Of a stretch of 43,228 nt of DNA, positions 5,122-41,863 are shown one piece after another. Under the pieces are notes generated by a model. It was not told the origin of the DNA and made no database searches. It worked only from the letters and a program-made list of their open reading frames with translations. The stretch is from the NCBI GenBank assembly GCA_964565715.1, contig CAZMGG010000003.1, forward strand, positions 64,368 to 107,595, in the 5' to 3' direction. The DNA is from an uncultured candidatus Brocadiaceae bacterium. Lineage in GTDB: Bacteria; Planctomycetota; UBA1135; UBA2386. The position numbers and the translations under genes are program-made. Within the stretch, counting starts at the first letter, position 1. Every line of letters begins with the position of its first letter.

Positions 5122-5239
5122 CGCGGGGGCCTCCGACGGCGGCGGCGGCGGGATCTTCCGGCGCCGAGGGAGGGCACATTAGGCCCCGGGGTCGCGCCGG
5201 TCTGCCGCGGGAGCCACAATCTCCCTTCGGAGGTGCATC

Positions 5240-15232: not shown

Positions 15233-16459
15233 TCAGCCTTCGATCAGCGCAATGAGCTGATCCACCGCCGCGTCGACGAAGGCCGGATCCTCGGCGTGGG
15301 TGGCCATCTCCCGCACCGTCACCGTCGCCGGCAGGCTCGCCTTCAGCGCCGCGAAGAACGCCTGATCGCCCGCCGGATCGCGCAGCGGGCCGCCTTCCCT
15401 CCCATAGCGGCTGGTCCCGGCGGTCGGCAGGAACAGCACCGCCCTGCCCTTGGTGTGCTGCAACCGCCGGCCGATCTCGCGGCCGACCTCCTCGAACTGC
15501 GCCCGGTCCAGGCGCGGCGCCAGCACCACCGGGCTGTGGAACACGTGCAGATGGTTCCGCCACGCCGGCGGCACCTGGTGCTCGGGCACCAGCAGGCCCA
15601 CGTGCTCGGTGCCGCCCGGCACGATCACCTGCGGCAGCCCGAGCCGGCCCGCCACCGTCAGCCGTTCCGGCGTCCCGGCCCGCAGGGCCTCGTGCAGTTC
15701 GTCGCTGATCTCGCCCAGCGCATAGTCGAACACCGCGCCGATGATGCCCTCCTTCATCATCTGCTCCATCGCCCGGCCGCCGGTCCCCACCGCGTGGAAC
15801 ACGATCGCCTCATAGCCGCGCTCGGCGAAGCGCCGCACCGCGTGCAGGGCGCCCTCGGTCAGCACACCGAGATTGGTCATGCCGATCAGCGGCCTCTCCC
15901 GCTGCTCGGCCCGGATCGGCCCGCCCACCTGCGCCATGCCCCAGATCGCCCCGGCGGCGTTGGCCAGCAGCCGCCGCAGGAACAGGTTGAGGCCGAGGAT
16001 GTCGCCGATCGACGGCATCATCGTGATGTCCTTGATGTCGACGTAGGGCGCGGTGTTGCCCGACGCCACCGTCGACACCATCAGCTTCGGCACGCCATAG
16101 GGCAGCGTCCGCATCACCTCGCAGCACACCGCCGTGCCCTGCAGGCCGCCCAGCCCGAGCACGCCGTGCACCTCGTCCCGATCGATGGCCCGCCGCAGCA
16201 GCCCACCGGCGCCGGCCACCATCACCGGCTGCGCCTTCTCCCGCGTCGGATCCTGCTGCAGCTTCGCCAGTCCGCTGCCGCCGGCCTCGGCGATTGCCTG
16301 CCGCGTCACGTCGCCGGCCGCCGCCGGCCGGCCGAGCACGCCGATGTCGTACAGCTGGGCCCGCCCGCCCAGCGCCGCGATCTGGTCGCGCACGAACGAC
16401 GCCTCGTCGGCCTTGGTGTCGAGGGTGGCCAGGATGGCGATCGTCTTCGGGCTCGGCAT
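15233..16459 (-). CDS. UPF0261 (Tm-1-like) family protein
   Basis: About 408 aa, MPSPKTIAILATLDTKADEASFV... It is conserved as a gene pair with the downstream PEP-hydrolase-like TIM-barrel gene. Confidence 0.65.
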   Translation of the reverse strand: MPSPKTIAILATLDTKADEASFVRDQIAALGGRAQLYDIGVLGRPAAAGDVTRQAIAEAGGSGLAKLQQDPTREKAQPVMVAGAGGLLRRAIDRDEVHGVLGLGGLQGTAVCCEVMRTLPYGVPKLMVSTVASGNTAPYVDIKDITMMPSIGDILGLNLFLRRLLANAAGAIWGMAQVGGPIRAEQRERPLIGMTNLGVLTEGALHAVRRFAERGYEAIVFHAVGTGGRAMEQMMKEGIIGAVFDYALGEISDELHEALRAGTPERLTVAGRLGLPQVIVPGGTEHVGLLVPEHQVPPAWRNHLHVFHSPVVLAPRLDRAQFEEVGREIGRRLQHTKGRAVLFLPTAGTSRYGREGGPLRDPAGDQAFFAALKASLPATVTVREMATHAEDPAFVDAAVDQLIALIEG

Positions 16460-17341: not shown

Positions 17342-17388
17342 ACGGCGTCGGCGTGCCGCCGCCGACGATCCGCGCTAGCTTCTTTCCG

Positions 17389-17784
17389 ATGTACCACGAA
17401 GTCCCCGCCGACGCCTTCCGCCACCGCCTCCGCGTGCGCTACTGCGAGACCGACCAGATGGGCGTGGCCCACCACGGCAGCCACGTGGCCTGGTTCGAGG
17501 AGGCGCGCACCGAGTGGCTGCGCGCCCGCGGCCGGACCTACCGCGAGATGGAGGACGCCGGCGAGTTGCTGCAGGTGGTGGATCTGGTGATCCGGTACGC
17601 GGGCACGGTGCGCTACGACGACGTGGTGGTGATCGCGGTGTGGGCGGCGGAGCGCAGCAAGGTGGCGGTGCGGGTGGCGTACCGGGCGACCCGCGAGGAC
17701 GGTGCGCTGGTGGCGGAAGGGATGACGCGGCTGGCGTGCGTGGGGCGGGACGGCAAGGTGCGGCGGCTACCGGCAGGCGTGTGA
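17389..17784 (+). CDS. Acyl-CoA thioesterase, YbgC/4HBT hotdog-fold family
   Basis: MYHEVPADAFRHRLRVRYCETDQMGVAHHGSHVAWFEEARTEWL carries the conserved D-x-x-G-V-x-H-x-x-Y motif region of 4HBT thioesterases. Confidence 0.65.
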   Translation: MYHEVPADAFRHRLRVRYCETDQMGVAHHGSHVAWFEEARTEWLRARGRTYREMEDAGELLQVVDLVIRYAGTVRYDDVVVIAVWAAERSKVAVRVAYRATREDGALVAEGMTRLACVGRDGKVRRLPAGV

Positions 17785-18059: not shown

Positions 18060-18683
18060 TTGGTCCTCGGCTGGATCATCCGGGCGCGCCGGCAGCGTCG
18101 CCCTTGGCTCGGGACAGAGGACCTGACCCAGGAGGCGCTGATCAGGATCCACGAAGGGCTACCGGGGCTGCTTTCGAGCGAAGTGGGCGGCCTGCTGCGG
18201 TGGGCCTGGCGGGTGTCAGCGAACGTCGTCGAGGATGAGTACCGTCGGACCAAGGCGCGGCGGCGGTCGCTCAGCGGACGGGATCCGGCGGACCCAGCGG
18301 ACGTGGTCGGCCGTGAGGATCCGCCAGACCAGGCGGTTGCGCGAGGCGAGGCGATCCAGTGGGTCGGCAGCCTGCTGTCGGCACTCTCGCCGCAGCACGA
18401 GCAGGTCCTGAGGCTTCGTGCCGAGGGTCGCGACTTCGACGAGGTGGCATCCGTGATGGCGCTGCCGTCGTCGAATGCGGCCGAGTGCCTGCATCGGCGA
18501 GCGATGGTGGCGTTGGATGAGGGACAGGCCCGCCGCAGGGCGAGGGGCTGTGGCGCAGCATCTTATTGCGTCCATGGGGTCGTCCGCGGCGCTGGCCGCG
18601 CCTTCCATCTTCTTCCGTGCAATCCAAAGAGGTTCCCATGCAGATCCCGGGCAGGCGGTTCTCCAACAACGACAAGATCCTGA
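18060..18683 (+). CDS. ECF-type sigma-70 factor; the start is uncertain and a canonical initiation codon for region 2.1 is missing
   Basis: Region 2.2 LTQEALIRIHEGL and region 4 LSPQHEQVLRLRAEGRDFDEVASVMALPSSNAAECLHRRAMVAL. The in-frame upstream sequence ...SAARLLDQLTPLVLGW resembles region 2.1, but no ATG or GTG follows the preceding stop; only CTG and TTG are available. Confidence 0.5.
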   Translation: MVLGWIIRARRQRRPWLGTEDLTQEALIRIHEGLPGLLSSEVGGLLRWAWRVSANVVEDEYRRTKARRRSLSGRDPADPADVVGREDPPDQAVARGEAIQWVGSLLSALSPQHEQVLRLRAEGRDFDEVASVMALPSSNAAECLHRRAMVALDEGQARRRARGCGAASYCVHGVVRGAGRAFHLLPCNPKRFPCRSRAGGSPTTTRS

Positions 18684-19009
18684 CGGATTGGGCCCCGCGC
18701 GGAGGGGACAACATGATCATCCGGGCGGACCGGGTGGCCTCCACGGCGTCGGGCAGCTGCCGGGTCACGATCCGGGTGATCACCAAGAACGCCGACGAGA
18801 GCGGCGAGGGTGTTCCGATCCACAGCAGCACCAACCCGGTGAGCTTCCAGGTGCTGAACTCGAACGACTCCCGATGTAGCATCCTTGCAAGCGGTGAGAC
18901 GCATGCTGGCACAGTGAAGGCATACTGGGCAGTCGCCATTGCCCCATCAGGAATGAAGACATTCCAGATTCGATGCAGGTGCCCTTGGATCCCCGCGGAG
19001 CCGATGTGA
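18638..19009 (+). CDS. Hypothetical small protein of 123 aa; first gene of the lower-GC cassette
   Basis: AAGAGG lies 7 nt upstream of the ATG. The stop overlaps the next gene's GTG as ATGTGA. No recognisable motifs. Confidence 0.5.
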   Translation: MQIPGRRFSNNDKILTDWAPRGGDNMIIRADRVASTASGSCRVTIRVITKNADESGEGVPIHSSTNPVSFQVLNSNDSRCSILASGETHAGTVKAYWAVAIAPSGMKTFQIRCRCPWIPAEPM

Positions 19010-19446
19010 TCACCAATCGAACATCCAGGATCGGACTTCTCGTCCTGGTGGCCTTGTTGCCGGTGATCGCATTCATCTGGTGCGGACGCCAGAGATCGGA
19101 CACTTGTGGGACGGTAAGCCCATGTCAGGAGTATGGACAAGCCCTGTTCGGCGCGAGCGCAGCCGTTGGAAGCATCATTCCGTTTATTGGAGCCAACCAT
19201 CAGGCTGTGCCTTCCGAATGGCTGGCCTGTGATGGTCGGGAGGTCGAGTCGCAGGATCATCCGGAACTAGCTACGCTGCTCGGTTCTGGGCAGGCCGGGG
19301 CATTCAGACTGCCGGATTTTCGTGGGATCTCGGCCATGAGGTTGAAGGGATATGACGGTCCAGCGAGCATGGCGTTGACGCAGCGCATCCCCGAGGAGAG
19401 CCCCGTAGTTGCTGTTCCTGTTGTTTGGTTCGTCAAGGCACGCTGA
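19006..19446 (+). CDS. Membrane-anchored phage tail-collar domain protein
   Basis: N-terminal TM helix IGLLVLVALLPVIAFIW. The stretch SIIPFIGANHQAVPSEWLACDGREVESQDHPELATLLGSGQAGAFRLPDFRG matches the tail-collar consensus (I..F.G...P.GWL.CDG........LF.LLG.......F.LPDLRG). Confidence 0.65.
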   Translation: MITNRTSRIGLLVLVALLPVIAFIWCGRQRSDTCGTVSPCQEYGQALFGASAAVGSIIPFIGANHQAVPSEWLACDGREVESQDHPELATLLGSGQAGAFRLPDFRGISAMRLKGYDGPASMALTQRIPEESPVVAVPVVWFVKAR

Positions 19447-19568
19447 TGGTGCGGGCGCACGTTGCTACACGAAGCGCGTGGATTCCCTGGATTTCCCGGG
19501 CATCATGGCAAGGCCTTTGTGCGTCCCCACGGACCAGCACTTGCTCGCTTGCAGGGTCACGGAGCGCC

Positions 19569-19775
19569 ATGGGCTGTTCTGCCGGACATGACAGCGGGTC
19601 CGTAGCTGGGGACTGGACCATTCCCGACGAAGGCATGGGCCAGATCTGGGACCGCAGGATGGCGCCGGACAAGGGCCACGGCAGTGAGGGCGGCTCCGGC
19701 GGAAAGGCCGGCTGTGGTTGCTCTGCCGGCGGCTCCTGCGGATGCAGGGGCGGATGCAGCGGCGGGACCCCCTGA
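19569..19775 (+). CDS. Gly/Ser/Cys-rich small peptide, 68 aa from Met 19569; alternative starts at 19635 or 19659 give 46 or 38 aa. Putative RiPP/bacteriocin-like precursor or metal-binding peptide
   Basis: C-terminal core GGSGGKAGCGCSAGGSCGCRGGCSGGTP. GGAG lies 4 nt upstream of the 19569 ATG. The stop overlaps the next gene's ATG as TGATG. This is the only long open frame in the 210-nt gap. Confidence 0.45.
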   Translation: MGCSAGHDSGSVAGDWTIPDEGMGQIWDRRMAPDKGHGSEGGSGGKAGCGCSAGGSCGCRGGCSGGTP

Positions 19776-20506
19776 TGTCGGTGAAGTCCGGGAGCAATAC
19801 GAGAGAAGCGCCAGCGGGGCGTGTGGGGACCGCTCGATCTGCCTGGCTGGGTTGGAGGCGGCGTCGTGAATCTATTGCAGTATGGCTGGCCGTCGGAGCA
19901 ATGGCAGCGTACATCCTTCTGCTTGCCGTCAGTGTCACGACGGCGTTGATGCTGGCGGTGCTTATGGGGGTCGTTGCCTATTGTGGACTACGGTGCCCTC
20001 GCGGAAGCAGGGTATCGGCCAAGGCGAAGAGTCTGGTGGTGGGGGCCTGTCTGGGATTCACGGTGACATGGGGTGGCGTCCTTGCGGGGAGCACGTGCTA
20101 TCGCGAACTGTCGCCCGAGGCTCAGTTGGAGTGGGATCAGGCCTATCTTGAACACCATGATCCTCATGAGGTCTGGCGCACTGCTGTCGTGGCAGGTTGG
20201 CCGGTGTGCGGAGTGGAAGGTCACGACGACTTCTACTGGATACGACGATCCTGGCGGGAGCAAGGGATGGGAGAGCGGCCCATAATTGTCAGTCAAGCGA
20301 CGCAGCCCTGGCGCGTGCCGCCATCTAAAGGCGTATGGGTGCTGTGGATCAACTTCGCGATCCTGACATGGTGTGGATGGGGGCTGGCCATCCTCATGCC
20401 GGGCAGATGGGTGACTCTGGCGCTGCCGTGGTGTGCCGCGGCTGCTGCCGTTGCGGTGGTATGGTCCGTGTATTGGCTGTGGAGGAATGCACTCGGTAAT
20501 GTCTAG
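19775..20506 (+). CDS. Four-TM membrane protein A, a putative immunity/transport protein of the cassette
   Basis: MSVKSG... start is coupled to the peptide stop. Two N-terminal and two C-terminal TM helices flank a Trp-rich central domain, VVAGWPVCGVEGHDDFYW. Confidence 0.55.
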   Translation: MSVKSGSNTREAPAGRVGTARSAWLGWRRRRESIAVWLAVGAMAAYILLLAVSVTTALMLAVLMGVVAYCGLRCPRGSRVSAKAKSLVVGACLGFTVTWGGVLAGSTCYRELSPEAQLEWDQAYLEHHDPHEVWRTAVVAGWPVCGVEGHDDFYWIRRSWREQGMGERPIIVSQATQPWRVPPSKGVWVLWINFAILTWCGWGLAILMPGRWVTLALPWCAAAAAVAVVWSVYWLWRNALGNV

Positions 20507-20733
20507 GCGGCAGCCGGCGTCGCCGATTGGCTGCGTGGCTGTGCAGGCCGGTCGGACCCGTAGCCGAGTGGCGGCGGGGCGTCCGACACGACCGTGCCAC
20601 CCGCCACGGACCGGAGCAGTGGCTGTTCCGGGTCTACGGTCTACGCGGGTGGCGAACTCAGGCCGGCATGAAGGTCGCCCAACCGCAACCCGGGCGACCG
20701 GAAGGCAGAGTTGCCAGCATGTGAGGTTGCACA

Positions 20734-21423
20734 ATGGATGATGTCGGGGTGCATCGGAGAGGAGTCCTGGAGCACACGGTGACGGAGCCAGGCGTGTCGA
20801 TCCGGATCCGTGCCGTGATGTGGGTATTTCTCTTCGGTTTCGCTGCTGCACTGGCGGTCATGCTGAACGCGGGGTTTCTGCTCATCATCCGCGTCGTCTC
20901 GTTGCTCCTGGTGTGGGCATGTCTGCCGTTCCTGTTGCGGCGGTGTGGGATATGGGCACTCCGAGCGTCCCTCGCGGTGGTGGTCGCATGGGGCGGGACC
21001 GGCTGCCTCCTGCACCTGACGACGGTGGCGTACAAGGACCTCAATTGGTCGCAACGGGAGGCCTGGGAGCAGACGTGGGTGGGGGCGAGTAATCGGCCGA
21101 CGTGGGTGGTGGCAGGATGGTCGATATGGGGTGTGGAGGGTCGAGACCCGGTAACCGATGCGTGGTACAGAGGCTCGATTGTCGTCGAGGGAGGATCGCG
21201 TTACCGGGACCCGTGTTGGGGGCTCTACGGCGACAAGGGCGTCGTTGCGTACGTCGCCAACTGGACCATCCTGTGGCTGATGGTCATGGTCGCGCTGGCA
21301 GTCGTTGGGCGATGGCGGGCGCCCGGGCGCGTGTCACTGGTCCGTCCCTGGTGCATCGCGTCGGCCTTGTGGGCCTTGGGCACTCATCTCGAGTTCGAGT
21401 GGTTCCGCGAGTACGGCTGGTGA
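20734..21423 (+). CDS. Four-TM membrane protein B, a paralogue of A; an alternative start is Met at 20818
   Basis: Same architecture as A, with conserved central motifs: WVVAGWSIWGVEGRDPVTDAWY against VVAGWPVCGVEGHDDFYW, and LNWSQREAWEQTW against LSPEAQLEWDQAYL. Confidence 0.55.
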   Translation: MDDVGVHRRGVLEHTVTEPGVSIRIRAVMWVFLFGFAAALAVMLNAGFLLIIRVVSLLLVWACLPFLLRRCGIWALRASLAVVVAWGGTGCLLHLTTVAYKDLNWSQREAWEQTWVGASNRPTWVVAGWSIWGVEGRDPVTDAWYRGSIVVEGGSRYRDPCWGLYGDKGVVAYVANWTILWLMVMVALAVVGRWRAPGRVSLVRPWCIASALWALGTHLEFEWFREYGW

Positions 21424-21603
21424 AGGCACCCCGTTCCCGCGATCGACCCCTGCGCCATGTACACCCCAGACCGCCCCACAGCCCCGCGCCCACCCACACC
21501 CACCCACCCATCCGCCCGGCCGGAAGTGGCGCCGCCGGCCGGTTCCCGCTCGAATGCCGGCAACCCGGCGTATCCTCGCCCTCGCCCGTATTCCCGCCCG
21601 CCC

Positions 21604-22125
21604 ATGTCGCTTGCCCCCGAGATCGCCCTCGAACGCCACCGTGAGCGCCTGCTGTCGGTGATCTACCTGCGGATGGGGCCGGACCTGCGCACCCGGATGG
21701 ATCCCGAGGATGTCCTGCAGGACGTCGCCATCGAGGCCCTCAACTCCTGGCACACCCTGTCGGACCCCGAACTGGCCGGGCCGTGGCTGGTGACCCTGGC
21801 CCGACGCAAGATCGCGCGCATCCTGCGCGATCAGGTGGGGGTGGCGGCGCGGGATCCGCGGCGGGAGCACCCGATCCAGACGGACTTCCCGGTGGCGGAC
21901 CGGCGGACCGGGCCGGTGACCACCGCCGATCGGGGCGATCGCCTGCAGCTGCTGGAGGCGGCGTTGCAGCGGCTGTCCGACGATCACCGCGAGGTCGTGC
22001 TGGGGATGAAGATCGAGGGCCAGTCGGCGAAGGAGGTGGCCGACCGGATGGGGCGCAGCGAGAACGCCATCCACCTGCTGCTCGGGCGTGCGTTGAAGCG
22101 GCTGGCGGAAGAGCTGAAGCTCTGA
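21604..22125 (+). CDS. ECF sigma-70 factor
   Basis: Region 2 DPEDVLQDVAIEALNSW and region 4 LSDDHREVVLGMKIEGQSAKEVADRMGRSENAIHLLLGRALKRL. The kinase gene starts 3 nt after its stop. Confidence 0.7.
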   Translation: MSLAPEIALERHRERLLSVIYLRMGPDLRTRMDPEDVLQDVAIEALNSWHTLSDPELAGPWLVTLARRKIARILRDQVGVAARDPRREHPIQTDFPVADRRTGPVTTADRGDRLQLLEAALQRLSDDHREVVLGMKIEGQSAKEVADRMGRSENAIHLLLGRALKRLAEELKL

Positions 22126-22127
22126 GC

Positions 22128-24698
22128 ATGACCGAGGCCCGCCCCGAGGCGCCCGAGCCGGGACCGCCGGACAGCAGCGCCGACCGCCGCATGGCGGACC
22201 TGCTGGCGGACACCAGCAGTGCCGCGGAACTGCGGCGGCGGCTGCAGGGCGACGCGACGGCGGCGCCGGATCGCGAGGATCTGCTGGCGCGGGTGAACGC
22301 GCTGGAGTTCGTCGACGCGGTGGTGGGCGGCGTCGACCTGCCCGCAGCGATCGGCGGCTACCGGATCCAGGGCCTGCTGGGCCGCGGCGGCATGGGCACG
22401 GTCTACCTGGCGTTCCAGCAGCAGCTCGAGCGGATCGTCGCGCTGAAGGTGCTGTCGCCGAACTGGTCGGCGGATCCGACCATGCGCGAGCGGTTCCGGG
22501 CGGAGGCGCGCGCGACGGCGGCGCTGCACCACCGGCACATCGTGCCGATCTACGACTTCGGCGAGGCGCAGGGCAGCCTGTACTTCGCCATGGAACGGGT
22601 GGACGGACTGAGCCTCGACCGGCACATCGCCGCGGCGCGGCGGCGTGGACAGCCGCCGATGGCGCCGCTGGAGGCGGCGCGGCGCTTCGCCGGCGTGGCC
22701 GACGCGCTGGGGCTGGCCCACCGGCGGCGGATCCTGCATCGCGACATCAAGCCCGGCAACATCCTGGTGGGCCAGGACGGCACGCTGGCGTTGACCGACT
22801 TCGGGCTGGCCAAGGTGCTGGACCGGGCGTCGCTGCGGCTGACGTCGAAGTCGGGCGGCTTCCTCGGCACGCTGCACTACAGCTCGCCGGAGCAGGCGCT
22901 GGGCCGCGAGGTGGGGCCGGCCAGCGATCTGTACGGGCTCGGCGTGACGCTGTTCGAGGCGATCACCGGCGAACTGCCGCACCGGGGGCGCACGACGGAG
23001 GCGGTGCTGCGCGAGATCCTGGAGGGCGAACCGCGGCGCCTGCGGGAGTTGCTGCCGCGGCCGCCGCGGGACCTGGAACTGGTGCTCGACAAGCTGATGG
23101 CCCGGGAGCCCGGCGACCGCTACCAGGACGGCGAGGCGCTGGCGCGCGACCTGCAGCGCATCGCCGACGGCGAGCCGGTGCACATCCGGCGGCTGCCGGT
23201 GTGGGTGCGGGCCTGGCGACGGGCGCGGAAGAATCCGCTGCTGGCCGGCGCCATGGTCACCGCCGCGGTGCTGCTGCTGGCGACGCTGGGGCTGTGGAGC
23301 GGCCTGCGCCGCGAGAAGGGCCAGGGGCTGGTGTCGCGGCACCAGAACCACCTGGTGCAGATCGCCAACGACGTGAAGCGCGAGGCCGGCGATCCGGCGG
23401 GCCCGGCGGGCCTGCTGGCGTGCCTGACGGGCACCTCGCTGCCCCAGGCGACGGAGAACACGACGCTGCTGGCGGCGATCGCCGCGGCCCAGGCCGAGGT
23501 GCCCGACGACCCGGTGCCGGCGGCGTTGCGGGCGGCGTGGCGGGAGGATCCAGCGCCCGAGGTGAGCGGGCTGCTGCGGGCGGGACGCGGCTTGGCGGCG
23601 CTGCAACGGCTGCGCGCGCCGATCGAAGGCGCGCTGGCGGAGCGGACCGGCGGCGACCTGTCGGTGGAACTGCGGCTCTACCGGCTCTACCTGCTGCGGG
23701 CGGTGGCCAACCTGACCGGCGCCGTGGGCGACCTGCCGGCGGCGCGGATGGACCTGGCCCTGGCGACGTTCCTGCGGCCCGGCGCCACGTTCCCGCGGCT
23801 GCTGGGCGAGGTGCTGGACGTGGTGACGACGCGGGCGGTGGGCACGGCGCTCCTCTCGTTCGAGCAGGAACTGGGCCGACGGAGCGTCGAGGAACGGCGG
23901 GTGGCGGGGCTGCTGCTGCGGGCCGCGGCGGCGCTGCCGCAGCCGCCGGGCGCCAATCTGCTGCCGCTGCCGCTGCCCCACCCCGACCGGCACCTGCTGG
24001 CCGCCGCCGCCGAGGCGTTGCTGGCCGGCAGCGTGCTGCCGGTGACCGCTGGCGCGCCGTCGCTGGAGGCGCAGCTGCTCGGCGCCGCCATCGAAGCCTC
24101 GCGGCACGGCGGCGACCTGCTCGCCCTGCAGGGCGCGCTGCAGCGGGGCCGCGCGCTGCTGGCCGAGGTGGCGCCCGAGGCGCCGCTGCAGTGCTGGCGG
24201 CTGGTGCTGGACCTGATCGAGCAGACGCCGAGCGCCGACACGCCGATGCTGGTTGGCGCCGACGATCCGCCGGCGCTGGTGCTGGCGGCCTGGGAGCGGT
24301 TCGCCCTGCTGGGCACCGCGCGCTTCCGGGTCGCCGCCTGGCTGCCGTCGTTCGTGCGGTTCGAGCAGGAACATGGCGACCTCACCGGGCTGCCGCGGAC
24401 GGCGGCGCTGGTGCGGCGGGCGGCGGGCCAGCTCACCGAGCCGCTGGCCCAGGCGTGGGTGGATGCGGCGCCGCGGGATCCGGACGCGCTGCTCTGCCGG
24501 CTGGAGGCGCGATTGCTGCTGCGGCGTTTCCCCCAGGCGGTCGACGACGGCATGGCGGCGGTGCAGTTCGCCGCCGACCGCGCGACGGCGGCGCGGGCGG
24601 TGGCGGCGTTGTTCGCCGCCGCCACCGAGCGGGCGATGCTCGGCGAGAAGATCTACCTGCAGCGGGTCACGGCGGTGTTCGCGGAGGCCGGCACGTGA
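22128..24698 (+). CDS. Hanks-type Ser/Thr protein kinase with a TM helix and a large C-terminal, probably periplasmic, domain
   Basis: Gly loop GRGGMGTVYLA; VAIK-like IVALKV; catalytic loop HRDIKPGNIL; DFG; SPE. TM helix LLAGAMVTAAVLLLATLGLW, followed by ~470 aa A/L-rich. Confidence 0.8.
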   Translation: MTEARPEAPEPGPPDSSADRRMADLLADTSSAAELRRRLQGDATAAPDREDLLARVNALEFVDAVVGGVDLPAAIGGYRIQGLLGRGGMGTVYLAFQQQLERIVALKVLSPNWSADPTMRERFRAEARATAALHHRHIVPIYDFGEAQGSLYFAMERVDGLSLDRHIAAARRRGQPPMAPLEAARRFAGVADALGLAHRRRILHRDIKPGNILVGQDGTLALTDFGLAKVLDRASLRLTSKSGGFLGTLHYSSPEQALGREVGPASDLYGLGVTLFEAITGELPHRGRTTEAVLREILEGEPRRLRELLPRPPRDLELVLDKLMAREPGDRYQDGEALARDLQRIADGEPVHIRRLPVWVRAWRRARKNPLLAGAMVTAAVLLLATLGLWSGLRREKGQGLVSRHQNHLVQIANDVKREAGDPAGPAGLLACLTGTSLPQATENTTLLAAIAAAQAEVPDDPVPAALRAAWREDPAPEVSGLLRAGRGLAALQRLRAPIEGALAERTGGDLSVELRLYRLYLLRAVANLTGAVGDLPAARMDLALATFLRPGATFPRLLGEVLDVVTTRAVGTALLSFEQELGRRSVEERRVAGLLLRAAAALPQPPGANLLPLPLPHPDRHLLAAAAEALLAGSVLPVTAGAPSLEAQLLGAAIEASRHGGDLLALQGALQRGRALLAEVAPEAPLQCWRLVLDLIEQTPSADTPMLVGADDPPALVLAAWERFALLGTARFRVAAWLPSFVRFEQEHGDLTGLPRTAALVRRAAGQLTEPLAQAWVDAAPRDPDALLCRLEARLLLRRFPQAVDDGMAAVQFAADRATAARAVAALFAAATERAMLGEKIYLQRVTAVFAEAGT

Positions 24699-27490
24699 CG
24701 CCGCCGTGGAGCGGGCGGCGGCGCGCCTGGGCCATGGCCGTCGGCGTGCTGGTGCTGGTGGCCATCGCGTCGGTGACGGCGTGGATCCTGGTCCAGGGCG
24801 GCGGTACCGGGCGGCGCGCGGCACCGGCCTCGGCGGGCGCACCGGCCGGCGCCAGCGTCGCGCCGGTGCCGGCCCTGCCGGCGGGGCCGCTGCCGGCGCC
24901 CAGCGACGACGGCGGCGTAGCGGGCACCGTCCTGCGGCCCGATGGCCTGCCGGCCACCGGCGCCCGCGTGACCCTGCACCGCGCCCAGACGGCGTGGCCC
25001 GAGTGGCGGCGGCAGGCGCTGGAGGTCGCGGTCACCACCGCCGGCGGCCAGTTCCGCTTCCGTACCGCGCGCGGACCCGACCTGCTGCTCGAGTTCGAGC
25101 ACCCGGACTTCGCCGGCGACCTGATCGAGGCCTCGCCCCTGGTGCGTGACGTGCAGCTCCGCCTGCAGCCGGGCTTCGTCGTGTCGGGCTTCGTGGTGGC
25201 CAACCGCCGGCGCCAGTTCGGCTGCCGCGTCACGCTGGAACCGACCATGGGCGAATGGCGGCGCACGGTGGGCGTCGACACCGGCACCGACGGCGCGTTC
25301 CGCTTCGACAACGTGCCCGCCGGCAGCGTGCGCGTGGTGGCGCGGCATCCGGCGTGGCAGCCGGCGGTGCAGCCGCAGGTCACGGTGGGCGCCAGCCGCG
25401 GCCTGGAACTGCGCTTCGAACGGCCGCCGCTGTCGCTCACCGGCCGGGTCCTGGCGGGCGGCAGCCAGCGGCCCCTGGTCGGCGCCCGGGTCACGGCGCT
25501 GCCCAACGTGACCTACCGCGCCCTGTTCGAGCCGCTGGTGACGATGACCGGCGGCGACGGCCGCTTCACGTTCCAGGGCCTCGGGCCCGGCAACCTGCGC
25601 ATCGAGGTGACGCATCCGGAATGGTCGAGCGGCTCGCGTTCGGTCGCGGTCAGCGACTCGTCGGTGGAGCTGCTGTTCGAACTGCTGCCGCGGGCGGCGG
25701 TGCGCGGCCTGCTGCGCCGCGTCGATGGCGTGATCGGCGGCGCCCTCGACGGCGTCCTGCTGTCGCTGCGCTCGGCCAGCGGCGAGATGGGCCGCTGCGC
25801 GGTCGCCGTGGATGGCACCTTCGCCTTCCCCGGCACCTGGTCGCTGGGCAACGCGACGCTGGAGGCCGTCGATGGCGCCGTGGCGTTCGCGCGCACGTCG
25901 GGCGCCGACCTGCCGATCCGCATCGAGGAGGGCGGCGAGGACCTGCAGATCGACGTCACCGCGCCGTCGGTGCTGCGCGGCCGGGTGGTGGACGGCGGCG
26001 GCGCGCCGCTGCCGGGGGCGCAGCTGCTCATCTCCCAGGAACTGCTGCGCCTGCCGGCACCGGACCGGGTGGTGGCGGTGGCCCTGGCCGACGGCTGGTT
26101 CGAGGTGCGCGGCCTGGCGGCGCGCTCGATGTCACTGACCGCGTGCCATCCGGGTCGGGCGGCGCGCCGCGTCGAGGTGCAGGCGCCGGCGCCCGGCGCC
26201 ACCCTGACCGTGCCCGACGTCGTCCTGCTGCCCGGCGGCAGCATCCGCGGCGTGGTCCGTCGCGGCGAAGGGCCGCTGCCGGGGGCGCTGGTGCAGGCCA
26301 CCGGCGGCGTGGCGTCCGGCACGACGGTGGCCGGCGCCGATGGAGCCTTCCTGCTGACCGATCTGGCGCCGGGCAGCTACCGCGTGCGCGCCCGCTACTC
26401 GACCATGCCGCTGGCGTTCGCCGAGGGCGAACTGACGATCACGCCAGGGGCCGTGCTGGGGCCGGTCGAACTCCGCTTCGGCGCCGGCCGCACGGTGCGC
26501 GGCGTGGTGCTCGGGCGTGACCGCCAGCCCGTGGAGGGCGCGGCGGTCACGGCCCGCGGTCTCACCTCATCCGGTGCACCGATCGTCACCGACGCCGCCG
26601 GCGCGTTCGCGATCGAAGTGCCGCAACGCGAGGTCGAACTGCTGATCGCGACCAGCCACGGCGGCAGCCAGGTCCTGCAGCGGGTGCCGGCGGAGGTCAC
26701 CGACGTCGAGGTGACGCTGGACGTGGCGCCGACGGCGACGGTCACCGGCCGCCTGCTCACCACGGTCGGCCGGCGACCCCTGCCGGCGGTGCTGGTGCGC
26801 ATCGAGCCGATCGGTGGCGCCGGGCCCCGCGCCAGCCTGGTCCGCTGGCTGGATCTGGCCGGTGGCGCCCTGCGGCTGCCGTTCGTGCCGGCGCAACCCT
26901 GCCGGCTGATCCTGCAGGGCGAGGGCCTCCTGCCGGCGGTGTTCCCGCTCACCCTGGTGGCCGGGCAGGAACACGATCTCGGCGAGGTGCTGCTGGAACC
27001 CGGCGCCGTGCTGTTCGGCCGCGTCGTCGACGAACAGGGCGCGCCGGTGCCGGGCTGCACCGTCTTCTTCGGCCGCGAGGAGGACCTGCGCGACCACGCG
27101 CCGCCGGGCCGCACCGATCCGCAGGGCCTGTTCCGGCTCGGCGGCGTCAGCTCAGCGCTGCCGACCCTGGTGGCCGTGGCACCGGGCTTCGCGCCGCGCA
27201 CCGTCACCCTGCGCCTGCCGCAGGACGTGCTGGCGCGGGAACCGCTGCCGGTCGTGCTGTCCCGCGGCACCCGCCTCGAGGTGGCGGTGCACGACGGCAC
27301 CGCCGGCCAGATGGTCGTCCTGCAGCGGGACGGCGCGATCCTGCAGGTGGCCGAGTCGGAGGACTCGGGCGTGGCGCACTTCCCCAACCGCGCCGCCGGG
27401 GTCTACGAGGTGTTCCTGCTGGGCCGGCCCGAGACCCTGGTGCAGGTGGCGCTGGACGGCCGCGCGGAGACGCTGCGCCTCGACCTGTGA
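24695..27490 (+). CDS. Large membrane-anchored CarboxypepD_reg-like repeat protein, a paralogue-type of the 5240-7669 gene; an alternative ATG is at 24734
   Basis: GTG overlaps the kinase stop as GTGA. TM helix AMAVGVLVLVAIASVTAWIL. At least 8 repeats of G-x-V-x-x-x-x-G-x-P-x-x-G-A, for example GRVVDGGGAPLPGAQL, GVVRRGEGPLPGALV and GRVVDEQGAPVPGCTV. Confidence 0.7.
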   Translation: MTPPWSGRRRAWAMAVGVLVLVAIASVTAWILVQGGGTGRRAAPASAGAPAGASVAPVPALPAGPLPAPSDDGGVAGTVLRPDGLPATGARVTLHRAQTAWPEWRRQALEVAVTTAGGQFRFRTARGPDLLLEFEHPDFAGDLIEASPLVRDVQLRLQPGFVVSGFVVANRRRQFGCRVTLEPTMGEWRRTVGVDTGTDGAFRFDNVPAGSVRVVARHPAWQPAVQPQVTVGASRGLELRFERPPLSLTGRVLAGGSQRPLVGARVTALPNVTYRALFEPLVTMTGGDGRFTFQGLGPGNLRIEVTHPEWSSGSRSVAVSDSSVELLFELLPRAAVRGLLRRVDGVIGGALDGVLLSLRSASGEMGRCAVAVDGTFAFPGTWSLGNATLEAVDGAVAFARTSGADLPIRIEEGGEDLQIDVTAPSVLRGRVVDGGGAPLPGAQLLISQELLRLPAPDRVVAVALADGWFEVRGLAARSMSLTACHPGRAARRVEVQAPAPGATLTVPDVVLLPGGSIRGVVRRGEGPLPGALVQATGGVASGTTVAGADGAFLLTDLAPGSYRVRARYSTMPLAFAEGELTITPGAVLGPVELRFGAGRTVRGVVLGRDRQPVEGAAVTARGLTSSGAPIVTDAAGAFAIEVPQREVELLIATSHGGSQVLQRVPAEVTDVEVTLDVAPTATVTGRLLTTVGRRPLPAVLVRIEPIGGAGPRASLVRWLDLAGGALRLPFVPAQPCRLILQGEGLLPAVFPLTLVAGQEHDLGEVLLEPGAVLFGRVVDEQGAPVPGCTVFFGREEDLRDHAPPGRTDPQGLFRLGGVSSALPTLVAVAPGFAPRTVTLRLPQDVLAREPLPVVLSRGTRLEVAVHDGTAGQMVVLQRDGAILQVAESEDSGVAHFPNRAAGVYEVFLLGRPETLVQVALDGRAETLRLDL

Positions 27491-30598: not shown

Positions 30599-30618
<20 letters not shown>
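28990..30618 (-). CDS. Multi-pass membrane protein, the putative permease of the ABC exporter
   Basis: MGLLAADLQ start overlaps the ATPase gene's 3' end by ~20 nt. About 10-12 hydrophobic helices. Confidence 0.55.
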
Positions 30619-31395
<777 letters not shown>

Positions 31396-31399
<4 letters not shown>

Positions 31400-32166
31400 C
31401 CGTCGAACTCCGCGGTGACCGGGCAGTGGTCGCTGGCCGGGCGCTTCAGCCGCACGTCCTTGTGCACGGTGACGGCCCTGCAGGCGGCGGTGGCCCGGGC
31501 CGAGGTCAGCACGTAGTCGATGCGCAGGCCCTCGTCCTTGAAGGCGGCGCCCGCCCTGTAGTGCCACCAGGTGTAGAGGCCGGGCTCGGGATGGAAACGC
31601 CGCGTCACGTCGTCGAGGCCCCAGTCCAGCAGCCGCCGCATGGCGGTCCGTTCCGGCTCCGAGCAGAGGATCTTGCCGCGCCAGGCCTCGGGATCGTGCA
31701 CATCCCGATCCTCGATGGCGACGTTGAAGTCGCCGAGCAGCACGACCTTCTCGTCGCGACGATAGTCCTCGTCGAGCATCGAGCGCAGCCGTTCGAACCA
31801 GGCGAGCTTCCGCCGATAGCTGTCGGTGCCCACCGCCTGGCCGTTCGGGCAATAGAGGTTGAGGACCATGAACTCGCCGACGTTGCAGCCGATCACCCGC
31901 CGCTCGCCGTCCGGCGGGTCGCCGGGCAGCCCGCGCAGGACCGCCTCCATGCGGTGCCGGGCCAGGATCGCGACGCCGTTGTAGGACTTCTGCCCGAAGG
32001 TCTCGAGGTTGTAGCCCTCGTCCTCCAGCGGCTCCCGCGGCAGCTGCTCGTCGACGACCTTGGTTTCCTGCAGGCACAGCACGTCGGGACGTTCGTCGCG
32101 CAGGAAGTCGATGACGTGGGCGAGGCGGGCCCGCAGCCCGTTGACGTTCCAGGTGGTGATCTTCAT
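31396..32166 (-). CDS. xthA: Exodeoxyribonuclease III (AP endonuclease of the Xth family)
   Basis: MKITTWNVNGLRAR, LCLQETK, NLYCPNG, LGDFNV and the C-terminal SDHCPV motif are all present. Confidence 0.8.
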
Positions 32167-32282
32167 CGGTGGGGGCGGGAGCGGGACGGCGGCGGCACGG
32201 AGGGGGCATTCTGGCGATCGTGCGTCCCGGCGGAAGGGCCTGCTTCTTGCCACCGCGCCGGTGGCCGGTTCTGCTCTCGCCC

Positions 32283-33560
32283 ATGCGATTCCCCCTCGCC
32301 GCGCTCTGGCTGTTCGCCCTGCTGCCCGCCTGCGCCGCGCCCGCGCGCTTCGTGGTGCCCAGCGACGATCGCGAGGTCGCCATGCGCGACATGGTCGCCG
32401 ATCTCGCCCGGAACGACGTCGTCGTGCTCGGCGAGACCCACGACAACATCCACGGCCATCGGGCCCACCTGGCGATCGTGCAGGCGCTGCACGCCGAACG
32501 GCCGCGCCTGGCGATCGCGATGGAGATGTTCGAGCGCGACGTGCAGTCGGTGCTCTACCAGTACCTGCTGGGCGACATCGAGGAGGCCGAGTTCCTGCGC
32601 GACAGCCGGCCGTGGCCGAACTACCAGACCGACTACCGGCCGCTGGTGGAGTGGGCGAAGCAGAACGGCGTGCCGGTGATCGCCGCCAACGTGCCGCGGC
32701 GCCTGGCCAGCAAGGTGGCGAAGGAAGGGCTCGCGGCGGTCGCGGGTGACCCGCTGACGGCGCGCGAGGTGTCGGCCCCCGAGGACCTCTACTGGGAGGC
32801 GTTCAAGGCCGAGATGGGTTCGCACATGGGCGCCGGCGGCGACGCGACGCGCCGCTTCTACGAGGCGCAGTGCCTCAAGGACGACACCATGGCCGAGTCG
32901 ATCGCCGACTTCCTGAAGGACGAGCGGCGGCAGGGCCGCGACACCCTGGTGGTGCACCTGTGCGGTCGCTTCCACTCCGACCACCGGCGCGGCACCGTCG
33001 CCCGGGTGCAGTCGCGTCTGCCGGAAGCGCGCATCGCCGTGCTGACGGTGGACGAGGTGCCCGAGTCGCACGAAGGCCGCTTCACGGTGAAGCCCGGCGT
33101 GGCGGACTACGTGGTGGTGGTGCCGCCGATGCCGAAGAAGGAGACGCCGGCGCGGCCGGCGCCGCCGGTGGCCGGCAAGCCCGTCAATCCGCACGAGCCG
33201 CGGACCGGCGCCACGCCGGCCAACCCACACGAGCCGAAGCCCGCGACGACCGCGAAGGCGACCGAGCCGCAGCGCGAGCCGCCGCCGCCGGGCGCCCGTC
33301 CGGCGCTCGGCCTGATGCCCGACTACGGCGCCGAGGGCGGCATGCGGGTCGGCGGCGTCACCGAAGGCGGGCCGGCCTGGGTCGGCGGCGTCAAGGAGGG
33401 CGACGTGATCGTCAAGGTCGCCGGCCTGCCGGTCACCGACATCACCACCTACAGCCAGGCGCTGGAGACGGTGAAGGTCGGCGAGCTGATCGAGATCGTG
33501 GTGAAGCGCGGCGCCGAGAACCACACCTTGAAGGTCGAGGTCGGCGTCCGCACGCGCTGA
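32283..33560 (+). CDS. ChaN-like (DUF399 / haem-binding uptake, Tiki-TraB superfamily) lipoprotein with a C-terminal PDZ domain
   Basis: Signal/lipobox MRFPLAALWLFALLPACAAP. ChaN-like VVLGETHDN and HxxR motifs. A Pro-rich linker. PDZ-like GVTEGGPAWVGGVKEGDVIVKVAG. Confidence 0.6.
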   Translation: MRFPLAALWLFALLPACAAPARFVVPSDDREVAMRDMVADLARNDVVVLGETHDNIHGHRAHLAIVQALHAERPRLAIAMEMFERDVQSVLYQYLLGDIEEAEFLRDSRPWPNYQTDYRPLVEWAKQNGVPVIAANVPRRLASKVAKEGLAAVAGDPLTAREVSAPEDLYWEAFKAEMGSHMGAGGDATRRFYEAQCLKDDTMAESIADFLKDERRQGRDTLVVHLCGRFHSDHRRGTVARVQSRLPEARIAVLTVDEVPESHEGRFTVKPGVADYVVVVPPMPKKETPARPAPPVAGKPVNPHEPRTGATPANPHEPKPATTAKATEPQREPPPPGARPALGLMPDYGAEGGMRVGGVTEGGPAWVGGVKEGDVIVKVAGLPVTDITTYSQALETVKVGELIEIVVKRGAENHTLKVEVGVRTR

Positions 33561-41781: not shown

Positions 41782-41863
41782 GGGCTTCAGGCCGCCTGCT
41801 GACGGGACGACATCGGCGCAGCGGACCACGGCAGCGTTGCCGGCGCAAGCCTGTCCCCGCCGG

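What the first reader, a model, noticed from the sequence alone, without database searches (positions are those of the whole stretch)
19569..19775. Microcin-B17-like Gly/Ser/Cys-rich small ORF with leader-plus-core organisation
The frame encodes ...DWTIPDEGMGQIWDRRMAPDKGHGSE-GGSGGKAGCGCSAGGSCGCRGGCSGGTP. The C-terminus is almost entirely Gly, Ser and Cys, with CGC/CGC spacing, resembling linear azole-containing peptide (TOMM) cores or small metal-binding (metallothionein-like) peptides. A GGAG lies 4 nt before the first Met, and the stop overlaps the downstream membrane-protein start. High-GC genomes throw up spurious Gly-rich frames, so it needs validation.
Basis: seen in the sequence. Interest (0 to 1): 0.7.

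Follow-up and report, generated by a model that had tools for sequence, protein, structure and literature searches.

The report
Orphan Cys/Gly-rich small ORF, not a TOMM
A 68-codon open frame ending in a glycine/serine/cysteine cluster really does sit directly upstream of a rare membrane-protein gene in a high-GC Planctomycetota-like genome, but it has no relatives and no azole-forming enzymes nearby, so it is at best an orphan thiol-rich mini-protein and may be a chance frame.

Summary

The microcin-B17/TOMM reading is not supported. No YcaO enzyme, azoline dehydrogenase, radical-SAM enzyme, peptidase-ABC exporter or pentapeptide-repeat immunity gene was found in the 43 kb. No Pfam or NCBIfam precursor model matches. 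Similarity to McbA is compositional only.

Whether the ORF is translated is unresolved, about 50:50.

Against translation:
- There is no homologue in any protein, genome or metagenome search.
- Codon and composition scores do not favour this frame.
- No such ORF lies upstream of three distant homologues of the membrane gene.
- Public gene calls omit it.

For translation:
- The Cys/Gly cluster is rare (none comparable in 1.24 Mb of other loci).
- It lies in a gene-free 329-nt gap.
- It is stop/start-coupled to a start codon confirmed by homologue alignment.
- Its internal DNA repeats are all in frame.
- At the closest homologue of the membrane gene, the gene ending 1 nt upstream also encodes a Cys/Gly cluster (NCDCGGGCGHGCCESC).

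Best guess: a cytoplasmic thiol-rich partner peptide of a very rare roughly five-helix membrane family. Interest is modest.

The parts
19561..19564 (+). GGAG, a possible Shine-Dalgarno element 4 nt before the ATG
   Evidence: Read directly. Neighbouring genes X and unk have AGAGG and GAGG at 5-7 nt; the Collar-domain gene, memb and sigma2 have none.
19569..19775 (+). Small ORF of 68 codons plus TGA; coding status unresolved (about 50%)
   Evidence: Translation. GC by codon position is 0.60/0.74/0.78. No homologue was found and no family model matches. It is absent from public gene calls of the same contig.
19569..19688 (+). N-terminal 40 codons ('leader-like' part: MGCSAGHDSGSVAGDWTIPDEGMGQIWDRRMAPDKGHGSE)
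   Evidence: GC1/2/3 of 0.62/0.57/0.78 looks coding-like. The composition score of 0.08 falls between true frames (0.30 +/- 0.18) and shadow frames (-0.23 +/- 0.31). AlphaFold2 on the single sequence gives no confident helix, pLDDT 54.
19689..19772 (+). Gly/Ser/Cys cluster of 28 codons: GGSGGKAGCGCSAGGSCGCRGGCSGGTP
   Evidence: Composition. Direct DNA repeats have spacings of 39, 144 and 12 nt, all multiples of 3. Rarity is shown.
19773..19777 (+). TGATG stop/start overlap between the small ORF and memb
   Evidence: Read directly. The memb start at 19775 is supported because its N-terminus aligns from residue 5 with residue 3 of homologue P0006.
19775..20506 (+). memb: 243-aa membrane protein with about five helices, member of a very rare family
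   Evidence: Paralogue of 20734-21423 (E 1e-8). An exhaustive HMMER search found only 4 other clusters among 1.84 billion representatives. Helices are from AlphaFold2, mean pLDDT 59. No Pfam, NCBIfam, PADLOC or significant PHROG match.
20734..21423 (+). unk: 229-aa tandem paralogue of memb (context)
   Evidence: E 1e-11 to P0006. No Cys/Gly ORF lies in the 228-nt gap upstream of it, and that gap shows no similarity to the gap holding the small ORF.
18973..19446 (+). Upstream gene (context): membrane-anchored protein with a phage-tail Collar domain
   Evidence: Pfam PF07484, E 3.5e-10; PHROG tail-collar and tail-fibre families.

Best explanation
The ORF is most likely a genuine but orphan small gene. 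It would encode a 68-aa, signal-less and largely disordered cytoplasmic peptide whose C-terminal five-cysteine, glycine-spaced cluster (C-G-C-x6-C-G-C-x3-C) is the working part.

It would be made together with the downstream membrane protein memb through the TGATG stop/start overlap. I infer that it acts as a thiol-rich partner of memb, either binding soft metals or acting as a redox-sensitive thiol switch. The cassette lies between two ECF sigma-factor genes on a low-GC island. It is not an azole-modified (TOMM/microcin B17) precursor.

Shown:
- the ORF anatomy;
- the coupling to a homologue-validated start codon;
- the rarity of the cluster;
- the absence of RiPP enzymes in the window;
- a second Cys/Gly cluster in the gene immediately upstream of the closest memb homologue.

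Inferred: translation, cytoplasmic location, metal or thiol chemistry, and interaction with memb.
For: 1. The ORF occupies a 329-nt gap with no better candidate on either strand. The other five frames are Ala-, Pro- or Arg-rich or contain stops.
2. Its stop overlaps the memb ATG. That start is corroborated because the memb N-terminus aligns with the P0006 N-terminus.
3. GGAG lies 4 nt upstream.
4. The highest GC is at the third codon position of this frame across 19550-19700.
5. All three direct-repeat families inside the ORF are spaced by multiples of 3: 39, 144 and 12 nt. By chance this has probability about 1/27.
6. The cluster is rare. No 34-aa stretch with at least 5 Cys and at least 10 Gly occurs in 1.24 Mb of other loci, and this is the only one in the window.
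7. At the locus of P0006, the closest outside relative of memb and unk (E 8e-8 and 1e-11), the gene ending 1 nt before the homologue is a 453-aa ORF.
   - Its N-terminus carries NCDCGGGCGHGCCESC, and that start has a GAGG at 5 nt.
   - Clusters of this density occur about 1-2 times per million codons in the control loci. That gives roughly p = 0.002-0.02 for finding one there, after allowing for a threshold chosen after the fact.
8. memb, unk and P0006 share a Cys at the inner end of the second helix. P0003, P0004 and P0005 lack both that Cys and an upstream Cys/Gly ORF.
Against: - No homologue of the peptide was found anywhere: the 5.8-billion-protein word search, JGI metagenome contigs, viral contigs, plasmids and PDB.
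- Codon-usage log-odds are negative for this frame under both a genome model and an island model, and it is not the best of the six frames.
- Amino-acid composition is uninformative for the N-terminal part and shadow-frame-like for the core. Cys, Ser and Gly are over-represented in shadow frames of this genome.
- No comparable ORF lies upstream of the homologues in L081, L086 and L087, or upstream of the paralogue unk.
- Similarity between the peptide and the 453-aa protein is not above composition (z 0.4-0.5).
- Public gene calls on the same DNA omit the ORF. They also truncate memb to 79 aa, so this counts for little.
- The only other copy of the locus has no variant in the ORF, so selection cannot be measured.
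- The supporting context rests on a single independent locus.
Confidence: 0.5

Rival explanations
1. Chance open frame. On this view, 19447-19774 is an untranslated spacer or 5' leader of memb on a low-GC, fast-evolving island. The Gly/Cys/Ser 'peptide' is simply how a G+C-rich, short-repeat, low-complexity stretch reads in one frame.
For: - 14% of shuffles give an ORF this long in the coupled frame.
- Several other frames are also open across this gap.
- Codon models do not favour the frame.
- Cys, Ser, Arg, Pro and Gly are enriched in shadow frames of this genome.
- Weaker Cys/Gly stretches occur in five shadow frames of the window at the 34-aa criterion and in two at the 16-aa criterion.
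- No homologue was found.
- The ORF is not conserved upstream of three homologues or of the paralogue.
- Gene callers did not call it.
Against: - A cluster this dense is absent from 1.24 Mb of control sequence.
- It sits in a gap rather than in the shadow of a gene.
- It ends exactly on a validated start codon and has a GGAG.
- All its internal repeats are in frame.
- A second Cys/Gly cluster sits in the equivalent upstream position at the P0006 locus.
- There is no RNA-structure or Rfam signal that would give the spacer another role.
Confidence: 0.35
2. Remnant of a larger gene. On this view the ORF is the surviving N-terminal Cys-cluster module of a larger protein, like the 453-aa gene upstream of P0006. 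It would have been left behind by deletion or rearrangement on the island and may or may not still be expressed.
For: - The Cys/Gly cluster of the 453-aa protein lies within its first 69 residues, which are followed by an internal Met. That is the same size as the 68-aa ORF here.
- Both end directly at a homologous membrane-protein gene.
- The island is compositionally atypical, at 62-66% GC against 72-79% elsewhere.
Against: - There is no detectable sequence similarity beyond composition.
- tblastn finds no trace of the remaining 384 residues anywhere in the window.
- The precise TGATG junction looks functional rather than degraded.
Confidence: 0.07
3. Unmodified bacteriocin-like peptide followed by two tandem membrane 'immunity' proteins, i.e. 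a class-II-microcin-like cassette.
For: - A small Gly-rich peptide gene sits immediately before two paralogous multi-helix membrane proteins.
- The cassette is an orphan with island-like composition.
Against: - Inspection of the 68-aa sequence shows no signal peptide and no double-glycine leader motif.
- No C39-peptidase ABC exporter is present. The only ABC ATPase, at 30599-32449 on the minus strand, is 11 kb away and has no peptidase domain.
- At the P0006 locus the upstream partner is a 453-aa protein, not a peptide.
Confidence: 0.05
4. True azole-type RiPP precursor (TOMM/LAP, microcin-B17-like) whose modifying enzymes are encoded elsewhere in the genome or are of an unrecognised type.
For: - The size and layout resemble McbA: 68 aa against 69 aa, with a Gly/Ser/Cys C-terminal core. 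McbA is described in PMC6722960.
- There are six Gly-Cys or Gly-Ser dipeptides in the core, against seven in McbA. The McbA sequence was recalled from memory.
Against: - No YcaO, scaffold (E1-like), FMN-dehydrogenase, radical-SAM, lanthionine or other RiPP enzyme is present in any substantial ORF of the 43 kb.
- No ABC2 exporter or pentapeptide-repeat immunity gene is adjacent.
- No precursor family model matches.
- The alignment to McbA is only marginally above a segment-wise shuffle (z 2.1).
- No helical leader is predicted.
Confidence: 0.03

Closest known systems
McbA, precursor of microcin B17 (linear azole-containing peptide, TOMM class)
   Same: - Almost the same length: 68 aa here against 69 aa.
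- An N-terminal non-repetitive part is followed by a C-terminal Gly-rich core with Cys and Ser mostly preceded by Gly.
- McbA is described in PMC6722960.
   Different: - There are no mcbBCD-type synthase genes, no McbEF ABC exporter and no McbG pentapeptide-repeat immunity gene in 43 kb.
- No predicted helical leader.
- Similarity is compositional only.
- The host is a Planctomycetota-like bacterium and the locus appears chromosomal rather than an enterobacterial plasmid operon.
Bacterial metallothioneins (SmtA/BmtA, PF02069; mycobacterial MymT) and Cys/Gly/His-rich metal-binding tails such as the C-terminus of E. coli SlyD (recalled from memory, not tested)
   Same: - A small or tail-like, low-complexity, thiol-rich sequence with C-x-C motifs spaced by Gly.
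- A His lies just upstream of the cluster (KGHGSE).
- No signal peptide, so the product would be cytoplasmic.
   Different: - No match to any metallothionein model.
- Only 6 Cys in 68 residues (9% overall, 18% in the core), fewer than typical metallothioneins.
- No metal-resistance gene is adjacent. The ZIP transporter at 41011-41829 is 21 kb away.
- Metal binding is untested.
N-terminal Cys/Gly cluster of the 453-aa orphan protein upstream of P0006 (L082:89-1450)
   Same: - A dense Cys/Gly cluster (NCDCGGGCGHGCCESC against SCGCRGGCSGG) is encoded by the gene that ends at the start of a homologous membrane-protein gene: a 1-nt gap there, a 1-nt overlap here.
- The cluster lies within the first 69 residues.
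   Different: - It is part of a 453-aa protein, not a stand-alone peptide.
- The cluster is N-terminal rather than C-terminal.
- There is no alignable similarity beyond composition.
- That protein is itself an orphan with no Pfam, NCBIfam or convincing PDB match.

Membership tests
TOMM / linear azole-containing peptide (microcin B17 type) | Precursor peptide with an N-terminal leader and a C-terminal core rich in Cys/Ser/Thr, often flanked by Gly | tested here: met
   A 40-aa mixed N-terminal part is followed by a 28-aa core with 13 Gly, 5 Cys and 4 Ser. This is a compositional match only.
TOMM / linear azole-containing peptide (microcin B17 type) | YcaO-domain cyclodehydratase with an E1-like/RRE scaffold partner and an FMN-dependent dehydrogenase encoded in the same cluster (McbB, McbC, McbD; PMC6722960) | tested here: not met
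   Pfam and NCBIfam scans of all substantial ORFs of the 43-kb window found none. Genes elsewhere in the genome could not be examined.
TOMM / linear azole-containing peptide (microcin B17 type) | Dedicated export and immunity genes (ABC2 transporter McbEF, pentapeptide-repeat McbG) | tested here: not met
   The downstream genes are two non-ABC membrane paralogues with no family match. The nearest ABC ATPase is 11 kb away on the other strand. No pentapeptide-repeat protein was found.
TOMM / linear azole-containing peptide (microcin B17 type) | Sequence membership in a known precursor family | tested here: not met
   No NCBIfam or Pfam hit at E <= 1. The McbA alignment has z = 2.1 against a segment-wise shuffle.
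TOMM / linear azole-containing peptide (microcin B17 type) | Azole or azoline heterocycles in the mature product (-20 / -18 Da per site) | not testable with these tools
   Needs mass spectrometry of the native peptide.
Bacterial metallothionein (SmtA/BmtA type) | Match to the family model and fold (PF02069) | tested here: not met
   No Pfam hit at E <= 1 and no PDB relative.
Bacterial metallothionein (SmtA/BmtA type) | Small, Cys-dense sequence with C-x-C / C-x-x-C motifs | tested here: inconclusive
   Two C-G-C motifs and five Cys fall within 16 residues, but Cys is only 9% of the whole peptide.
Bacterial metallothionein (SmtA/BmtA type) | Metal-thiolate cluster formation | not testable with these tools
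   Needs metal titration or ICP-MS on purified peptide.
Class II microcin / bacteriocin with immunity gene | Double-glycine or Sec leader, plus a C39-peptidase ABC exporter | tested here: not met
   No such leader is seen on inspection. No Peptidase_C39 domain was found in any ORF scanned.
memb/unk membrane-protein family (undescribed; defined here) | About five helices with a conserved outward loop: Y-[RK]-D-L ... W ... V-[AS]-G-[WF]-P ... G ... [KR]-G ... N-[WF] | tested here: met
   This applies to the two downstream genes, not to the small ORF. Alignment A2 shows the invariant columns. The profile search found 6 clusters in 1.84 billion representatives. Pairwise E-values are 1e-8 to 1e-11.

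The most novel reading that the evidence does not exclude
The Cys/Gly cluster and the membrane protein may form a previously undescribed two-gene module. A cytoplasmic thiol-cluster polypeptide would be translationally coupled to a very rare roughly five-helix membrane protein. In this window the polypeptide is a stand-alone 68-aa peptide; at the P0006 locus it is the N-terminus of a 453-aa protein. The module would sit under ECF-sigma control and serve metal handling or thiol/redox sensing at the membrane. An even more novel reading is not strictly excluded but is much less likely (no more than 0.03): the peptide is a RiPP precursor modified by unrecognised or distantly encoded enzymes.
Probability: 0.25. 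Interest if true: 0.5.

Novelty: new variant of a known kind. Interest (0 to 1): 0.3.

Why it matters
If the peptide is real, it would add an orphan thiol-rich mini-protein and a very rare membrane-protein family to the under-annotated small-protein repertoire of Planctomycetota-like bacteria. That family has six clusters among 1.84 billion representatives.

It would also be a concrete case in which standard gene callers miss or truncate several genes on an atypical-composition island. They omit the small ORF, the first 164 residues of memb, and the Collar-domain protein as delimited here.

If it is a chance frame, the case is a useful warning. A McbA-like composition plus a neat stop/start overlap can arise in high-GC DNA. 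RiPP calls should therefore require the biosynthetic enzymes.

Either way, this is not a new microcin-B17-type antibiotic locus.

Tried and rejected
**Homologue searches for the peptide — all empty**
- The 5.8-billion-protein word search.
- JGI metagenome contigs, viral contigs, plasmids and PDB.
- Pfam, NCBIfam, PADLOC and PHROGs.

**Orthologous loci for a conservation or dN/dS test**
- memb found nothing in genome contigs or metagenome contigs.
- Anchoring on the nearby PEP-hydrolase-like gene gave 80 loci. The best were Planctomycetota MAGs at 84-90% identity.
- Synteny in those loci ends before the island, and none carries any cassette gene.
- The one other copy of the locus (L088, Logan SRR10807893) is 99.9% identical with no variant in the ORF.

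**Other roles for the DNA**
- No Rfam family matches.
- RNA folding is not stronger than shuffles, z = -0.8.
- No sigma-70-like promoter or terminator lies in the gap.
- No crude ECF-type -35/-10 match, and no similarity to the memb-unk gap.

**Alternative genes on other frames or the other strand of 19447-19775**
- All are Ala-, Pro- or Arg-rich or interrupted by stops, and none scores convincingly.

**Other ideas rejected**
- A second, paralogous small ORF upstream of unk: none.
- A frameshift fusion with the Collar gene or with memb. The joining segment is junk-like in composition, and homologues have no Cys-rich N-terminus.
- A zinc-binding anti-sigma factor reading: no H-x3-C-x2-C motif and no helical domain.

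**Structure prediction**
- memb gave mean pLDDT 59 and the peptide pLDDT 54. Both are too poor for a fold search, so none was run.

- The A2 alignment was too divergent for a viral-contig scan.

Full report
**1. Observation**

The sequence is exactly as reported.
- An ATG at 19569 opens a 68-codon frame: MGCSAGHDSGSVAGDWTIPDEGMGQIWDRRMAPDKGHGSEGGSGGKAGCGCSAGGSCGCRGGCSGGTP.
- GGAG lies at 19561-19564, 4 nt before the ATG.
- The TGA at 19773-19775 shares its last base with an ATG at 19775 that opens the next ORF (19775-20506).
- The last 28 residues contain 13 Gly, 5 Cys and 4 Ser.

**2. Setting**

The window is 72-79% GC, but 18500-21400 is a 62-66% GC island with weak codon-position signal. 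The nearest relatives of a flanking housekeeping gene are Planctomycetota MAGs at 84-90% amino-acid identity.

All on the + strand, the local order is:

| Coordinates | Gene |
|---|---|
| 17353-17784 | thioesterase |
| 18060-18683 | weak ECF sigma factor |
| 18638-19009 | 123-aa orphan, 'gene X' |
| 18973-19446 | membrane-anchored protein with a phage-tail Collar domain (PF07484, E 3.5e-10) |
| 19447-19774 | the 329-nt gap holding the small ORF |
| 19775-20506 | memb |
| 20734-21423 | unk |
| 21457-22125 | second ECF sigma factor |
| from about 22118 | large protein with carboxypeptidase-regulatory-like repeats |

memb and unk are paralogues (30% identity, E 1e-8), so they are real genes even though composition-based signals are poor here. 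Public gene calls on the same DNA truncate memb to 79 aa and omit the small ORF. They also do not contain the Collar protein with the start used here. Gene callers are therefore unreliable on this island, and their silence about the small ORF carries little weight.

**3. Is it more than chance?**

ORF length is not significant. With the TGATG fixed, 14% of dinucleotide shuffles of the gap give an ATG-ORF of at least 68 codons in that frame.

The Cys/Gly cluster is unusual.
- It is the only 34-residue stretch in six frames of the window with at least 5 Cys and at least 10 Gly.
- None exists in 1.24 Mb of unrelated loci, including 404 kb at 66% GC or more.
- Weaker versions do occur in shadow frames. 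Five 4-Cys/8-Gly stretches were found, and two 16-residue stretches with at least 5 Cys and 4 Gly.

Intrinsic coding measures are equivocal.
- GC by codon position is 0.60/0.74/0.78 overall and 0.62/0.57/0.78 for the first 40 codons, which looks coding-like.
- Codon log-odds are nevertheless negative under both a genome model and an island model, and this is not the best frame.
- A true-frame versus shadow-frame amino-acid score puts the N-terminal part between the two distributions. It puts the core on the shadow side, because Cys, Ser and Gly are shadow-enriched in this genome.

The three direct-repeat families within the ORF are spaced 39, 144 and 12 nt apart, all multiples of three. At the protein level they produce GCSAG twice, GGSGG/GGSCG, and GCRG/GCSG. 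This is mild support for in-frame evolution.

No alternative role for the DNA emerged.
- No Rfam hit.
- No unusual RNA folding, z = -0.8.
- No promoter or terminator consensus.
- No convincing gene in any other frame.

**4. Comparative evidence**

The peptide has no detectable relative in any collection or model library. No orthologous locus could be recovered.
- memb finds nothing in 185,579 species genomes or in JGI metagenome contigs.
- Loci anchored on the neighbouring PEP-hydrolase-like gene lose synteny before the island.
- The single other copy of the locus is 99.9% identical with no variant in the ORF.

An exhaustive profile search with memb plus unk found only four other clusters among 1.84 billion representatives: P0003 to P0006. 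All come from contigs of about 2 kb or less.

| Homologue | Locus | What lies upstream |
|---|---|---|
| P0004 | L081 | C-terminus of another tandem paralogue |
| P0003 | L086 | no Cys/Gly ORF in any forward frame |
| P0005 | L087 | no Cys/Gly ORF in any forward frame |
| P0006 | L082 | 453-aa orphan ORF ending 1 nt before the homologue's start |

These contexts come for the first three, and for P0006.

P0006 is the closest outside relative (E 1e-11 to unk, 8e-8 to memb). The first 69 residues of the 453-aa ORF upstream of it contain NCDCGGGCGHGCCESC, and its start has a GAGG at 5 nt.

Clusters of that density occur about 1-2 times per million codons in control loci. Finding one in that position has a nominal probability of about 0.002. 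Allowing for a criterion chosen after the fact, I would put it at no better than about 0.02.

The two Cys/Gly segments are not alignable beyond composition (z about 0.4).

memb, unk and P0006 also share a Cys at the cytoplasmic end of the second helix. P0003, P0004 and P0005 lack it. The absence of a Cys/Gly ORF upstream of those three may therefore reflect a subfamily difference.

The memb-P0006 alignment starts at residues 5 and 3. This validates ATG19775 as the memb start, and so the TGATG overlap involves a real start codon.

**5. Test of the TOMM / microcin B17 reading**

The microcin B17 system is defined by three things (PMC6722960):
- a 69-residue precursor, with a 26-residue helical leader and a 43-residue Gly-rich core;
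- the McbBCD synthase;
- the McbEF exporter and the McbG immunity protein.

Only the compositional precursor criterion is met here.
- Pfam and NCBIfam scans of every substantial ORF in the 43 kb found no YcaO, scaffold, FMN dehydrogenase, radical-SAM or lanthipeptide enzyme.
- The same scans found no C39-peptidase exporter and no pentapeptide-repeat protein.
- The McbA alignment has z = 3.5 against whole-sequence shuffles but only 2.1 when the leader and core are shuffled separately. So the similarity is compositional (the McbA sequence was recalled from memory).
- No helical leader is predicted, though this was a low-confidence single-sequence model.

Enzymes encoded elsewhere in the genome cannot be excluded. 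I put this reading at about 3%.

**6. Most likely mechanism**

Weighing sections 3 and 4, I put translation of the ORF at roughly even odds and slightly favour it.

If it is translated, the product has no signal peptide and is predicted to be disordered. Its only distinctive element is a five-Cys cluster with Gly spacers, preceded by a His. That chemistry is characteristic of soft-metal thiolate sites or redox-sensitive thiol switches. Examples are metallothioneins and the Cys/Gly/His tail of SlyD, both recalled from memory and not tested here.

Stop/start overlap would tie its synthesis to memb. memb has an Arg-rich N-tail and a Cys-bearing loop (YCGLRCPRG) that would face the cytoplasm under the positive-inside rule.

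I therefore propose a cytoplasmic thiol-cluster partner of memb. The flanking ECF sigma-factor genes suggest envelope-stress or metal-stress control, but this was not tested.

Every step beyond the ORF anatomy, the coupling and the contextual recurrence is inference.

The main rival, at about 35%, is a chance frame in a low-complexity spacer. Minor rivals are:
- a remnant of a larger Cys-cluster gene (about 7%);
- a bacteriocin-plus-immunity cassette (about 5%);
- a TOMM precursor modified in trans (about 3%).

**7. Verdict**

- The microcin-B17/TOMM interpretation is not supported.
- The metal-binding suggestion remains open.
- The locus is an orphan, and its novelty, if it is real, is modest. 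It would be a new variant of thiol-rich mini-proteins paired with an undescribed rare membrane family.
- Interest: 0.3.

Noticed in passing
window 19775-20506 and 20734-21423; loci L081, L082, L086, L087: memb and unk belong to an extremely rare, unannotated membrane-protein family. Only six clusters were found among 1.84 billion representatives. The family has conserved motifs Y-[RK]-D-L, V-[AS]-G-[WF]-P and N-[WF]. Tandem duplication is also seen in L081.
   Followed up: partly
L082:89-1450 (+): A 453-aa orphan protein with an N-terminal NCDCGGGCGHGCCESC cluster ends 1 nt before the P0006 gene. It has no Pfam or NCBIfam match, and the only PDB hit is a weak one (E 0.0016) to NDUFA12.
   Followed up: partly
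window 15398-15428: Seven C-to-T differences are clustered within 31 nt between the window and the otherwise identical Logan contig L088. They lie inside the UPF0261 gene. The only other difference in 7967 nt is C-to-A at 19998, which changes Pro75 to His in memb. The cluster could be DNA damage, an assembly artefact or local hypermutation.
   Followed up: no
window 18638-19009 (+): 'Gene X' is a 123-aa orphan ORF with an AGAGG ribosome-binding site. In 150-nt windows the GC of its third-codon-position phase reaches 0.96. It is called in public annotation (P0007) but matches no family in four libraries. It overlaps the ends of both neighbouring genes.
   Followed up: partly
window 18060-18683 (+): The upstream ECF-type sigma factor scores weakly and carries an extension of about 55 aa after region 4 with four Cys and two His (RARGCGAASYCVHG...HLLPCNPKRFPC). 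This is reminiscent of the Cys-rich extensions of metal-sensing CorE-type ECF sigma factors, but that was not tested. The last 46 nt overlap gene X.
   Followed up: no
window 18500-21400: This low-GC island (62-66% against 72-79% elsewhere) holds only orphan or poorly conserved genes and is bracketed by two ECF sigma-factor genes. Public gene calls truncate memb to its last 79 aa, and the Collar-domain protein with the start used here is not among them.
   Followed up: partly
window 22118-27490 (+) and 5183-7669 (+): Two very large proteins carry multiple carboxypeptidase-regulatory-like domains. The first begins at the stop of the second ECF sigma-factor gene, an arrangement I recall as common in Planctomycetota.
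   Followed up: no
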